This document shows positions 15,001-18,000 of a stretch of DNA of 64,000 bases, piece after piece. The position numbers were made by a program. This DNA is from Escherichia coli. GTDB taxonomy: Bacteria > Pseudomonadota > Gammaproteobacteria > Enterobacterales > Enterobacteriaceae. Position 1 is the first letter of the stretch. Each line of letters begins with the position of its first letter. The stretch lies in the NCBI RefSeq assembly GCF_036507355.1, contig NZ_AP027877.1. One strand, given 5' to 3'.

Positions 15001-18000
15001 CTTCCGCACTTTGCGCATCAACCAACTTAATGGTGCTGTTACCATCATCGACTTCAGTGAGCGATAACGCAGAGTCAATATCACGAGATACTGAGCTTAC
15101 AACGTCACTGTCAGAAACCTGAATCACACCCTCGCCGCGCAAATCCAGCGTTTTACTAACGTTGACCGTCCCTTCTGTCATCTGTGCACCTGCTGTCAGG
15201 GCACCAAAATCAACGGTTCCGCCGGAGAATCCCAGAGTGCTAATAGAATGAGCGCCCTTACCCACTGTTACCTGGCTTCCCTGACCCGCAGTGATCCCGC
15301 CTCTCTGCAGAAACTCAGCATTCTTTTCCAGGTTAAATGCCGTGTTCTGGAACGCCAGTGAACCCTGGAACCAGTCTGTATAAGCAAACTCATCGAAGGA
15401 GAATTCGTGATTCCCCATGTTTATTTCAACAATACCTCTACCTTGAAGATCGTTATCAAATACCCAATCTTTATTGGCATTGATTTGCAGTTTGCCATCA
15501 ACATCCAGGTCCGCACGGCCGATGTTCTTGTCTTCAGAAATAACCGCGACAGCACCAGAAGCGACATCAATATATCCGCTGAATGCATAGTTATTGCCGG
15601 TCAACTCCACCATCCCACTGTCGATACTTATTGTACCGTTGCCAGAAATCTTATTGGCAAAGGTCATGCTATCGTCAGCCTTCAAGTGTAATTTCCCGCG
15701 GTTGGTGATTTCTGCTGTACCTATATTTTGGGTGATCCCTAAAGCGCCATTTTGCTCAATTTTGGCTTTACCGCTGAAGGCAGAGTTATCCCCGGTTAAG
15801 TAAGTCGTGCCATTGAGCGCATTGATATAGCCCAGGCCCTCGCTGCCACTGACAATATCCGCGGAAATAGTCGCGTCTTTATCCGTGTGGTTTAAGGTGA
15901 TTTTCTTATCGGATGTCGAAGCCCACACAAACTCAATTTTTTCGGCATCAATAATCCCTGCCGCCTTCGCAGCACTTCCTTCCTGTGCACCTAACGCTAA
16001 CTCAGAGTTGGTGCTTAAACTAATTTTCGGTGCGGATATTTTACCTCCATCTGATACGACTAATGTTGTATCAGAACGTTGGTCGTAATAACCCAGGCTA
16101 ATATGTTCACGAACATTAACTTCACCACCGTTATTAACCGACAGGAACTGATTACCGCCATATCCGCCGTAAACGCCCATAAAGAAGGTCCCGGCATTTA
16201 CCTGACTACCTTCGCCGCTTACATTCCCCTGCGTATAAGTCAGACGACTGGTGCCCTTAACATGAATTTTGCCGCCATTGGAGACATTAAAATAGCCTTG
16301 ATCATGTCTCATGCCTGAGTTTGACTCATACAAATCATCAGCATATAACTCGCTGCCAGCATTGGAGACATTCAGGAAGCCCGTACCTTTCAGCAAAAAG
16401 TTAAGTGGGCCATTGATTGTTACCTTTCCTCCGGTAATATCCAACCCACCACCAGACGCGAGAGTCAGACGCGGACGGGAAGTATCTGTCGCATTGATTA
16501 CCAGATTGGCATTGTCGGTCACTGAAATACGGTAATCAATAGTCTGGTTATCTTTACCGAATACAGCTGTGTAATCTTCACTTACAGCGACATCTTTAGA
16601 CAGTGCCAGAGATGAATATAAACTTATCGCGCTAATTAAAACAGCCCGGGACTTTTTTCCTTTTACTCTGCTCCCCAGCTCAGAGCAGACGCTCCAACAG
16701 TTACGGGACCTGTTCCACTTTAGCCGATATATTTTATTCATCACAATCTCCAGCAATACATCCAAATAAAACCAAGATTGCATAAACAGCAACGCATTAA
16801 ATTCCATTCCGGTTACTGTTCATCGCATATAAAAATTCAAAAATTTTGCATAGCATTGGCAACCACATATCTGAGTATGTAGTTCAGAGGGTAATAAAAT
16901 AGCAAGTTACTACTGAAAACTTATTTTAAGTTAACACTCTTAACTTTATCATTACATTCCCCCCCAGTCTCTAATACCTGCGCATTATATGTATCCGGGA
17001 ACTCAAATCAACTCAAAATATAAACAAAAGCAGGAGAAATACATTTAATATATAGCCGGTAAAAGTGGTAACTCTTATTAGGTATCCAAATATAAGAATC
17101 GTCTTATTAATAAATATATAACCCTATAGGACTGAATCCATTCAGCTAATACAAAATAAAATCGTTAATTAATAAAATATAAAATCATGAAGTGATACAA
17201 GAAGAATTTCAGGATATGACATGACAATCATATATAATATATGCATAATTTTTTACAGCGAGTCAATGATTCCCGCGCCATATGCAGACATGGCGCGGTT
17301 TTATGCAATAACAATCACGCGTCCGGGAACATCACGCTATGGCCCGGCGCTTCACGATGGAGATGAATAAAGTTAAGGTGCCGCTCGTACTGGTCAAGAA
17401 TATCGGTGATCACCTGCTCTTTGCTGTAGTCCATCAGGTCGTTGCCCTGGCTGCCTTCTAACAGGAAAGTTTCCAGCCGGTAGTAAGTCGATTTACCGCT
17501 ACGTGCGCGGTAGGTAAAGCCCGGCACCGAATATTGCTGCGGCCAAATCTGATAGACAAAGTTTTGCTCTTCGCCCATATGCACCAACAAATCCAGATGA
17601 CCCAACTGTTGTCCCTCTTCCGGTGGCAGGCTTTTTAGCTCCACGTACGCGCCGCGCAACCGCAACTCCTGCGCCACTTCTTCCATTGCCGGGTAACAGA
17701 CCGTCTCCATCATCTGTTTAGTGTAACGCGTGCCCGGATAATTCATCAGGCGCGAGAGACGTTTTTTCCAGCTCAGGCGATCCTGAAGCCCCAGCGGTCG
17801 CGGTGCGGTATCGCGGTTGGAACTTTTACGGCGGTAATCTTCTACCTTCAGAGATTTATACAACCCCGCCATCACGAAGAAGATCACAAAGCTGAACGGC
17901 AGCCCCATAATCACCGTGGTGTTTTGCAGCGCGGATATCCCGTTGGTCATCAGCATGCCGAGCGTCAGCAGGCCAATCGCCACCGACCAGAAGACGCGCA

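What the first reader, a model, noticed from the sequence alone, without database searches (positions are those of the whole stretch)
16808..17314. 500-bp extremely AT-rich region upstream of the autotransporter
No credible ORF and very low GC, typical of horizontally acquired adhesin promoters that are silenced by nucleoid proteins such as H-NS. It also marks the insertion boundary next to betT.
Basis: inference. Interest (0 to 1): 0.3.

Follow-up and report, generated by a model that had tools for sequence, protein, structure and literature searches.

The report
Regulatory DNA upstream of adhesin ehaA
The AT-rich stretch is the promoter region of the E. coli adhesin gene ehaA, and it is a diverged copy of the well-studied K-12 pdeL promoter (same Cra site, same core promoter), so it is ordinary regulatory DNA rather than the scar of a foreign insertion.

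Summary
Window 16808-17314 has 31% G+C against 51% for the window (below the 1st percentile), carries no credible ORF, and lies between the ehaA start (true ATG 16741, minus strand) and the betT stop (17315).

The locus is E. coli betIBA-betT-ehaA-pdeL, and the segment is the betT-proximal end of O-island 15.

The K-12/O157 identity break is at 17272/17273, at the foot of the betT terminator hairpin. The DNA left of it is not novel insert. Window 16890-17243 is a roughly 50%-identical homologue of the K-12 pdeL regulatory region, with three conserved islands:
- The Cra box that was tested by EMSA in K-12 (17130-17146, 17/17 identical).
- A sigma-70 promoter, TTGATT-16-TATAAT (17011-16984).
- A PdeL-box-like palindrome (17091-17108).

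The Cra box and promoter are also conserved in E. albertii and E. fergusonii, where ehaA remnants lie between promoter and pdeL. Promoter-ehaA-pdeL therefore looks ancestral, and K-12 lost ehaA. There is no tRNA, integrase or flanking repeat.

H-NS silencing is plausible, because the K-12 orthologue is H-NS-silenced and activated by Cra and PdeL. It is untested for ehaA.

This is a modest finding: a new member of a known kind.

The parts
16742..17314 (-). Complete ehaA-betT intergenic region (573 bp, 31.6% G+C). The finding's 16808-17314 is a subset of it.
17315..19348 (-). betT (choline transporter, 677 aa). Its stop codon abuts the region.
17273..17298 (-). betT terminator hairpin (CCGCGCCAT...ATGGCGCGG), core genome. 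In this haplotype the U-tract that follows the stem on the betT sense strand in K-12/B2 types (GGTTTCTCYT) is replaced by GGGAATCATTG. On the + strand the stem is followed by TTTTATGCAA.
17272..17273 (.). Right-hand boundary of the ehaA haplotype block (O-island 15). Identity to K-12-type genomes is 99% to the right and about 50% to the left.
   Evidence: PMC8565820
17130..17146 (-). Cra (FruR) box GCTGAATGGATTCAGTC. It is identical over 17 nt to the K-12 pdeL Cra box used in EMSA, and is the best Cra-consensus match in the 64-kb window.
17091..17108 (.). PdeL-box-like palindrome AATAAG-N6-CTTATA, with the same core as the K-12 Cra-independent PdeL box AATAAG-N6-CTTATT. It is the only match in the window and is kept with one change in E. 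albertii.
17006..17011 (-). -35 hexamer TTGATT (K-12: TTGATC), preceded by conserved TATTTT.
16984..16989 (-). -10 hexamer TATAAT with a 16-nt spacer. The block CATATAATGCGC is 12/12 identical to K-12.
16742..16978 (-). Predicted ehaA 5' leader of about 236 nt (transcription start inferred at about 16977-16979). It folds better than shuffles (z = -2.7). The Shine-Dalgarno GGAG lies at 16751-16748.
   Evidence: start site is inference
16959..16965 (-). Homopolymer (G7 on the sense strand) just downstream of the predicted start. Its length varies from 5 to 8 among ten E. coli.
12759..16741 (-). ehaA autotransporter adhesin gene (ESPR, autochaperone, beta-barrel). In this window it is frameshifted by a 1-bp loss in an A5 run near 13036-13040, with a stop at 13028.
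12705..12736 (-). Conserved G+C-rich hairpin in the 141-bp ehaA-pdeL spacer. It could be a terminator or a leader structure, and is retained in E. albertii and E. fergusonii.
11529..12617 (-). pdeL (yahA). Its first ~375 nt belong to the diverged haplotype block (78-89% identity to K-12), although the HTH amino-acid sequence is almost unchanged.

Best explanation
The segment is the transcriptional control region of ehaA. It is the orthologue, in the ehaA-bearing haplotype carried by about a quarter of E. coli, of the K-12 pdeL promoter region.

Read on the minus strand, from betT towards ehaA, it contains:
- the betT terminator hairpin;
- about 126 bp of AT-rich DNA;
- a Cra box;
- a PdeL-box-like palindrome 22 bp further on;
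- a sigma-70 promoter (TTGATT-16-TATAAT) about 118 bp downstream of the Cra box;
- a structured leader of about 236 nt that ends in a GGAG ribosome-binding site and the ehaA ATG.

Proposed mechanism, by analogy with the K-12 orthologue (inferred). H-NS coats the AT-rich DNA and keeps the promoter off. Cra binds its box when glycolytic flux is low. Cra together with PdeL, at low c-di-GMP, recruits RNA polymerase and counteracts H-NS.

This promoter is also the nearest recognisable one upstream of pdeL. It is the one retained in every lineage that has lost ehaA. Some transcription therefore probably reads through the conserved hairpin after ehaA into pdeL.

What is shown: the homology, the conserved motifs and their spacing, the gene order, and the haplotype boundaries. 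What is inferred: the transcription start, protein binding, H-NS silencing and read-through.
For: Identity of the locus:
- betIBA-betT-ehaA-pdeL, 99.5% identical to O157:H7.
- Pfam ESPR, AC_1 and Autotransporter domains counted from the ATG at 16741.

Homology to the K-12 pdeL regulatory DNA:
- Local alignment of L002 5420-5762 with window 16890-17243 scores 95, against 46 +/- 7 (maximum 73) for shuffles.
- Background identity is only about 49%. Even so, runs of 17 nt (Cra box), 12 nt (CATATAATGCGC) and 7 nt (AGTTGAT) are invariant across the window, K-12-type and B2-type alleles. P(run >=17) is about 0.0004.
- The spacing from Cra box to -35 is 118 nt here and 121 nt in K-12.

Link to experiments:
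- The oligonucleotides in Table S4 of bioRxiv 10.1101/2021.10.01.462762 place the K-12 Cra box/CDB, the RNAP-binding fragment and the CIB exactly on these blocks.
- That paper reports Cra Kd 49 nM, activation by Cra and PdeL, and strong derepression in an hns mutant.

Motif statistics:
- The Cra box is the best of only two consensus matches in 64 kb, and appears in 0 of 2000 local shuffles.
- The PdeL palindrome is the only match in 64 kb, and appears in 17 of 2000 local shuffles.
- The PdeL HTH is nearly identical in the two haplotypes.

Outgroups:
- E. albertii and E. fergusonii keep the Cra box, -35, -10 and the 16-nt spacer.
- Downstream of these they carry ehaA remnants or the last ehaA codons plus the spacer before pdeL.

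Other:
- No promoter-like site in the ehaA-pdeL spacer.
- The TTGATT/TATAAT pair is the best sigma-70 match in the region, 10 of 12.
Against: - No transcription start, binding or expression data for ehaA were found.
- The promoter scan as a whole is not enriched over shuffles: 5 sites found against 3.9 expected.
- A Cra box about 160 bp upstream of the start is an unusual distance for a direct activator.
- The Cra-dependent PdeL half-site next to the Cra box is poorly conserved (AGTCCTATA against AGTCTTAAT).
- The K-12 upstream CIB has no counterpart at its K-12 position.
- No match to the TCGATAAATT H-NS motif with up to 2 mismatches.
- The hairpin after ehaA could be an efficient terminator, which would uncouple pdeL.
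- ehaA is a pseudogene in this window and in some other strains, so the promoter's output here may be biologically moot.
Confidence: 0.72

Rival explanations
1. This is foreign, laterally acquired island DNA carrying the adhesin's own promoter, xenogeneically silenced by H-NS. Its edge marks where the island was inserted next to betT.
For: - Low G+C.
- The segment is part of O-island 15, which is absent from K-12 (PMC8565820).
- It is patchily distributed, in 1398 of 5426 genomes.
- In the pdeL 5' part the ehaA haplotype is closer to E. albertii (89.5%) than to K-12 (82.7%). The rest of pdeL is 97.9% identical to K-12. This fits import of the whole block from a sister lineage by homologous recombination.
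Against: - The K-12 spacer is homologous and equally AT-rich.
- There is no tRNA, integrase or junction repeat (OI-15 holds only ehaA).
- The left boundary fades inside pdeL.
- Outgroup species have the same promoter with ehaA remnants. ehaA linkage is therefore ancestral and the K-12 state is a deletion.
Confidence: 0.15
2. Decaying, functionless spacer. ehaA is being lost, and the AT-richness only reflects mutational bias in unconstrained DNA.
For: - ehaA is frameshifted here, and is disrupted in O145 RM12275 and OkiPb01680.
- It is reduced to remnants in E. albertii and deleted in E. fergusonii and K-12 types.
- Background identity between haplotypes is about 50%.
Against: - The invariant Cra box, -35, -10 and their spacing persist in five lineages against that background.
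- Within E. coli the spacer varies less (5.4% of sites) than the adjacent ehaA 5' coding DNA (11.7%).
Confidence: 0.07
3. The region's main product is a small protein or small RNA, for example a YahV-like peptide. yahV lies at the homologous place in K-12.
For: - K-12-type genomes annotate the 24-aa YahV directly upstream of, and overlapping, the Cra box.
- The window has a 25-aa hydrophobic ORF (17169-17246, minus strand) at a similar place.
- A promoter-like site at 17221-17249 (+) faces the hairpin terminator.
Against: - The window ORF has no sequence similarity to YahV and a different frame and stop.
- No Pfam or Rfam hit.
- Nothing is annotated there in any ehaA-type genome.
- yahV is not annotated in the B2-type allele.
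Confidence: 0.05

Closest known systems
E. coli K-12 pdeL (yahA) promoter region: the Cra box with Cra-dependent PdeL box, the Cra-independent PdeL box, and H-NS silencing (Reinders et al.; bioRxiv 10.1101/2021.10.01.462762)
   Same: - An identical 17-nt Cra box.
- The same core promoter (TTGATY-16-TATAAT-GCGC).
- The same spacing of about 120 nt between them.
- The same genomic position directly after the betT terminator.
- AT-rich (33% in K-12, 30% here).
- A PdeL-type palindrome is present.
- The PdeL HTH is conserved.
   Different: - About 50% identity elsewhere.
- ehaA (4 kb) sits between promoter and pdeL.
- The roughly 240-bp upstream part carrying the K-12 CIB is missing. A similar palindrome lies between the Cra box and the promoter instead.
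- The CDB half-site is diverged.
- No yahV.
- The betT terminator lacks its U-tract.
O-island 15 of E. coli O157:H7 EDL933 (4643 bp, single gene ehaA/z0402; PMC8565820; Wells et al. 2008 as cited there)
   Same: The same DNA: 99.5% identity in the spacer to O157:H7 and the same boundaries. The finding is its betT-proximal 530 bp.
   Different: The island concept implies inserted DNA with no K-12 counterpart. Here part of it is shown to be allelic to K-12 DNA, and the divergent block extends about 375 bp into pdeL.
H-NS-repressed autotransporter adhesin promoters of E. coli (for example upaC and ehaG/upaG; recalled from memory, not checked here)
   Same: An AT-rich upstream region with a long leader. 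The adhesin was studied mainly by overexpression.
   Different: No H-NS data exist for ehaA in the literature searched. Here a specific activator site (Cra) is identifiable by orthology.

Membership tests
K-12-type pdeL Cra/PdeL/H-NS promoter region | Cra box as bound by Cra in EMSA (TGCTGAATGGATTCAGTC...) | tested here: met
   Window 17146-17130 is GCTGAATGGATTCAGTC, 17/17 identical to L002 5649-5665, which lies inside the published CB/CDB oligo. Binding itself was not tested.
K-12-type pdeL Cra/PdeL/H-NS promoter region | Core sigma-70 promoter about 120 nt downstream of the Cra box, inside the published RNAP-binding fragment | tested here: met
   TTGATT-16-TATAAT at 17011-16984, against K-12 TTGATC-16-TATAAT at L002 5527-5500. 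The gap from the Cra box is 118 nt here and 121 nt in K-12. It is conserved in 5 lineages.
K-12-type pdeL Cra/PdeL/H-NS promoter region | Cra-dependent PdeL half-site abutting the Cra box (AGTCTTAAT) | tested here: inconclusive
   The window has AGTCCTATA, differing at 3 of 9 positions. Other lineages have AGYCTTRRN.
K-12-type pdeL Cra/PdeL/H-NS promoter region | Cra-independent PdeL palindrome (CIB) about 190 nt upstream of the Cra box | tested here: not met
   Only 126 nt lie between the Cra box and the betT hairpin, and they show no similarity to the K-12 CIB region. A palindrome with the same core (AATAAG-N6-CTTATA) lies instead at 17091-17108, downstream of the Cra box.
K-12-type pdeL Cra/PdeL/H-NS promoter region | Promoter directly precedes pdeL (leader of about 330 nt) | tested here: not met
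   ehaA (12759-16741) and a 141-bp spacer intervene.
K-12-type pdeL Cra/PdeL/H-NS promoter region | Silenced by H-NS, activated by Cra and PdeL in vivo | not testable with these tools
   Only compositional support: 30% G+C, and TpA steps at 12.5% against 4.7% for the window. The simple H-NS motif is absent.
Xenogeneically silenced, horizontally acquired island | G+C far below the genome average | tested here: met
   31% against 51%. The K-12 allele is 33%, so this does not discriminate.
Xenogeneically silenced, horizontally acquired island | Signs of foreign origin: mobility genes, a tRNA or repeat at the junctions, absence from sister species | tested here: not met
   No tRNA. No junction repeats of 10 nt or more. 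The only gene is ehaA. The promoter plus ehaA remnants are present in E. albertii and E. fergusonii.
Genomic-island insertion boundary | Sharp identity breaks at both ends, and island DNA without a counterpart in the island-free genome | tested here: not met
   The right break is sharp at 17272/17273. The left side decays gradually inside pdeL, to 78-89% identity. About 350 bp of the 'island' is homologous to the K-12 spacer.
Intrinsic terminator (betT) | G+C-rich stem-loop followed by a U-tract on the sense strand | tested here: inconclusive
   A stem of 9 pairs is present at 17273-17298. On the betT sense strand it is followed by GGGAAUCAUUG here, against GGUUUCUCYU in K-12/B2 types.
YahV small protein | Conserved 24-aa ORF ending in the Cra box | tested here: not met
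   K-12 YahV is VCDILLNVLNIVFIGIAIILVIIC. The window ORFs at the equivalent place are unrelated in sequence and frame.

The most novel reading that the evidence does not exclude
ehaA sits inside the pdeL autoregulatory transcription unit. The Cra/PdeL/H-NS-controlled promoter at 17011-16984 would drive ehaA and, by read-through of the conserved hairpin at 12705-12736, pdeL as well.

If so, in the roughly 26% of E. coli that keep ehaA (including O157:H7), surface display of the EhaA adhesin would be wired to the bistable c-di-GMP 'digital' switch and to central-carbon flux. The celebrated K-12 pdeL switch would then be the relic of an ancestral adhesin-phosphodiesterase operon.
Probability: 0.3. 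Interest if true: 0.55.

Novelty: new member of a known kind. Interest (0 to 1): 0.33.

Why it matters
EhaA is a recognised adhesion and biofilm factor of O157:H7, but I found no description of its regulation in the held literature.

Recognising its upstream region as the orthologue of the Cra/PdeL/H-NS-controlled pdeL promoter gives concrete, cheap experiments: a defined Cra box, a PdeL palindrome and a core promoter to mutate. It also predicts that adhesin expression follows carbon flux and c-di-GMP state.

It corrects the 'O-island = inserted DNA' picture for OI-15. The polymorphism is two ancient haplotypes of one locus, with ehaA lost in the K-12 type.

It also shows that the K-12 pdeL promoter was inherited from a promoter that once headed ehaA.

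None of this is surprising in kind. It is ordinary AT-rich regulatory DNA.

Tried and rejected
- **Rfam scan of 16000-18000** at E<=1 gave nothing.
- **Pfam on the small ORFs** gave nothing.
- **Genome-contig scan** for GACTGAATCCATTCAGCNAAT returned only one E. coli-like contaminant contig (in a 'Collinsella' MAG, 98% identical to the window) and two chance hits. The species-representative genomes differ in the flank, so it gave no outgroups. Outgroups were obtained instead through PdeL homologues.
- **Searching for remnants** of the K-12 leader (L002 5167-5420) or the K-12 CIB region in the window's ehaA, leader or spacer gave scores equal to shuffles.
- **E. coli HH97** (L009) looked like a decayed-ehaA intermediate. 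It contains long poly-C runs and a K-12/ehaA hybrid junction, and is most likely assembly junk, so it was not used.
- **H-NS motif TCGATAAATT** has no match with up to 2 mismatches.
- **Literature searches** for ehaA with H-NS, Cra, pdeL, Z0402 or ECs0362 found no regulation data.
  - The EHEC Cra paper has no held supplement.
  - The EHEC H-NS ChIP paper's held supplements do not list the locus.
  - Reinders et al. 2016 (J Bacteriol) is not held.
- **Mapping the second Cra-like site** through O157 TR01 coordinates failed, because the window is not collinear with that genome there.
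Full report
**What is there**

The finding lies between two minus-strand genes. To the right, ORF 17315-19348 is betT. 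To the left is a long autotransporter ORF.

A megablast against 5426 complete E. coli genomes shows the 573-bp spacer 16742-17314 is 99.5% identical to E. coli O157:H7. There the flanking genes are annotated ehaA (autotransporter adhesin) and betT, and the gene order is betA-betB-betI / betT-ehaA-pdeL-yahB.

Pfam finds the ESPR signal peptide, an autochaperone domain and the autotransporter beta-domain when ehaA is translated from the ATG at 16741. This is also RefSeq's start.

**Observation**

- G+C is 31.2% for 16808-17314, against 51.0% for the window. Only 0.9% of 507-bp windows are as low.
- The only ORFs are 20-49 aa. None has a Pfam hit and none is annotated in any RefSeq genome.
- Rfam finds nothing.

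The last 42 bp (17273-17314) are a G+C-rich hairpin belonging to the core genome.

**Boundary**

1398 genomes carry the whole spacer. About 3560 more share only 17273/17275-17314.

A K-12-type genome (NCTC86, locus L002) has pdeL and betT separated by 874 bp that contain the tiny gene yahV. BLAST gives 99% identity to the right of window 17274/17275. To the left of 12629 identity is about 97% over the whole flank and only 84% in the adjoining pdeL 5' end. Nothing matches in between.

The replaced segment (12630-17272/4, about 4645 bp) matches the published 4643-bp O-island 15, which holds only ehaA (PMC8565820).

The right edge falls exactly at the foot of the betT terminator stem.

The left edge is not sharp. 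The first ~375 nt of pdeL are 78-89% identical between the two types, and the remainder is 94-100%. The PdeL helix-turn-helix is almost unchanged at the protein level. No tRNA and no junction repeats are present.

**The AT-rich DNA has a K-12 counterpart**

A sensitive local alignment of the K-12-type spacer with window 16742-17274 finds a collinear match. It pairs L002 5420-5762 with window 16890-17243 and scores 95, against 46 +/- 7 (maximum 73) for shuffles.

In a multiple alignment of three ehaA-type, one K-12-type and one B2-type allele, background identity is about 49%. Three islands are nonetheless invariant:
- GCTGAATGGATTCAGTC (17146-17130).
- AGTTGAT (the -35, TTGATT at 17011-17006).
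- CATATAATGCGC (the -10, TATAAT at 16989-16984).

A run of 17 or more identical columns is expected in 0.04% of simulations, and a run of 12 or more in 1.1%.

The hexamers are separated by 16 nt in all alleles. The gap from Cra box to -35 is 118 nt here and 121 nt in K-12.

**Link to experiments**

The Jenal-lab preprint on pdeL (bioRxiv 10.1101/2021.10.01.462762) reports the following:
- The K-12 pdeL promoter is activated by Cra (Kd 49 nM) and by PdeL.
- PdeL binds a Cra-dependent box overlapping the Cra site and a distal Cra-independent palindrome (CIB).

Its Table S4 oligonucleotides map exactly onto the conserved blocks:
- The CB/CDB probe is L002 5637-5666, which is the Cra box.
- The end of the RNA-polymerase-binding fragment is L002 5488-5507, just past the -10.
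- The CIB is L002 5842-5865 (TTCAATAAGTTTAGTCTTATTTAA).

The window's 17-mer is therefore the same sequence that binds Cra in vitro. It is the better of only two Cra-consensus matches in 64 kb, and occurs in 0 of 2000 local shuffles.

The K-12 CIB region has no counterpart at its position in the window. However, the only match in the whole window to the CIB core AATAAG-N6-CTTATT lies at 17091-17108, 22 bp from the Cra box. It occurs in 17 of 2000 local shuffles.

**Outgroups**

PdeL homologues led to an E. albertii contig (L016) and an E. fergusonii contig (L017).

E. albertii has:
- the Cra box (GCTGAAAGGATTCAGCC);
- the -35 block;
- CATATAATGCGT;
- collinear remnants of ehaA at 78-81% identity, matching window 15673-15558, 13627-13395 and 13103-12502, which run into pdeL.

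E. fergusonii has:
- a perfect Cra box;
- the promoter block;
- the last ehaA codons (…TGGACATTCTGA) plus the ehaA-pdeL spacer directly before pdeL;
- a CIB-like palindrome upstream of the Cra box, as in K-12.

The five-way alignment keeps the Cra box, TATTTT-N-GTTGAT, the 16-nt spacer and ATATAAT. E. albertii also keeps the proximal palindrome with one change.

The arrangement promoter-ehaA-pdeL is thus the likely ancestral state of the genus, and the K-12 type is a deletion derivative. The K-12-type spacer is itself 33% G+C, so AT-richness is a property of the locus and not a mark of foreign DNA.

One complication remains. In the pdeL 5' part the ehaA haplotype is closer to E. albertii (89.5%) than to K-12 (82.7%). 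The rest of pdeL is 97.9% identical to K-12 and 82% to E. albertii. Trans-species polymorphism or introgression of the whole block by homologous recombination therefore cannot be excluded.

**Mechanism proposed**

Shown:
- gene order;
- homology;
- conserved motifs and their spacing;
- the haplotype boundary.

Inferred:
- Transcription starts about 7 nt after the -10 (~16977-16979). This gives a 236-nt leader that folds better than shuffles (z = -2.7) and ends in GGAG-N6-ATG.
- H-NS silences the region.
- Cra, with PdeL, activates it.
- Transcription partly reads through the conserved hairpin at 12705-12736 into pdeL. The 141-bp spacer shows no promoter-like site.

Direct data on ehaA regulation were not found in the held literature. 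The simple H-NS high-affinity motif is absent. H-NS silencing therefore rests on composition and on the orthologue.

**Variation within E. coli**

Among ten ehaA-type alleles the spacer varies at 5.4% of sites. The adjacent ehaA 5' coding DNA varies at 11.7%, and the betT 3' end at 2.7%.

The Cra box varies only at its outermost base. The -35 and -10 do not vary. A homopolymer at 16959-16965 varies from 5 to 8.

**Verdict**

The feature is real, and it is ordinary regulatory DNA. 'Horizontally acquired promoter marking an insertion boundary' is not supported as stated.

The added value is the identification of this DNA as the orthologue of the Cra/PdeL/H-NS-controlled pdeL promoter, here heading ehaA. 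I found no description of this in the held literature, and it yields specific testable predictions.

Noticed in passing
window 13028-13040: ehaA in this window is frameshifted. An A5 run on the sense strand is A4, which creates a stop at 13028 and cuts off the last ~89 aa of the beta-barrel. It could be a real pseudogene or a homopolymer sequencing error. ehaA is also annotated as disrupted in O145 RM12275 and in OkiPb01680.
   Followed up: yes
window 16959-16965: A homopolymer (C7 on the + strand, G7 on the ehaA sense strand) lies about 13-19 nt downstream of the predicted transcription start. It varies between 5 and 8 bases among ten E. coli genomes. The effect on expression is unknown.
   Followed up: partly
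window 17262-17298: The haplotype boundary separates the betT terminator stem from its U-tract. K-12/B2 types read ...GGCGC(T/G)GTTTCTC(C/T)T after the stem, while this haplotype reads ...GGCGCGGGAATCATTG. betT termination may therefore be weaker here, allowing read-through into the ehaA control region.
   Followed up: no
window 11529-12617 (first ~375 nt of pdeL, 12243-12617): The 5' third of pdeL belongs to the diverged haplotype. It is 82.7% identical to K-12 and 89.5% to E. albertii, while the rest is 97.9% identical to K-12. The HTH amino-acid sequence is nevertheless nearly unchanged. PGAP names this PdeL only 'EAL domain-containing protein' in ehaA-type genomes.
   Followed up: partly
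window 12618-12758: The ehaA-pdeL spacer has two hairpins (12705-12736 and about 12640-12690). Both are retained in E. albertii and E. fergusonii with a few compensatory changes. With only three sequences the support is weak. They may be a terminator/attenuator or a pdeL leader structure.
   Followed up: partly
L009 5380-7360 (E. coli HH97, NZ_CP116409.1): This is the only genome of 5426 with a third state between pdeL and betT. It has 1981 bp holding collinear ehaA-like pieces (71-98% identity), a K-12-leader-like piece and long poly-C runs. It is either a truly decayed ehaA or, more likely, a faulty consensus from a long-read assembly.
   Followed up: partly
window 42143-42158: A second Cra-consensus-like palindrome (ACTGAAGCGATTCAGT, 3 mismatches) lies in another AT-rich spacer between divergent ORFs 40107-41852 (-) and 42240-43793 (+, 517 aa).
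   Followed up: no
window 23294-24604, 26823-28610, 41671-42528: These are other strongly AT-rich stretches, with minimum G+C of 25.6%, 32.5% and 30.4%. The first lies just after betA, where O157 relatives carry the ipbA/hyxR island.
   Followed up: no
window 17169-17246 (minus strand): A 25-aa hydrophobic ORF (MHILYMIVMSYPEILLVSLHDFIFY) lies upstream of the Cra box, at roughly the place where K-12 has the 24-aa yahV. It has no sequence similarity to YahV.
   Followed up: partly
L003 (JAIJJM010000200.1, 'Collinsella sp.' MAG contig): A 5.1-kb contig filed under a Collinsella MAG is 98% identical to window 12208-17308 (pdeL 5' end, ehaA and the spacer). It is almost certainly E. coli contamination of the bin.
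   Followed up: yes
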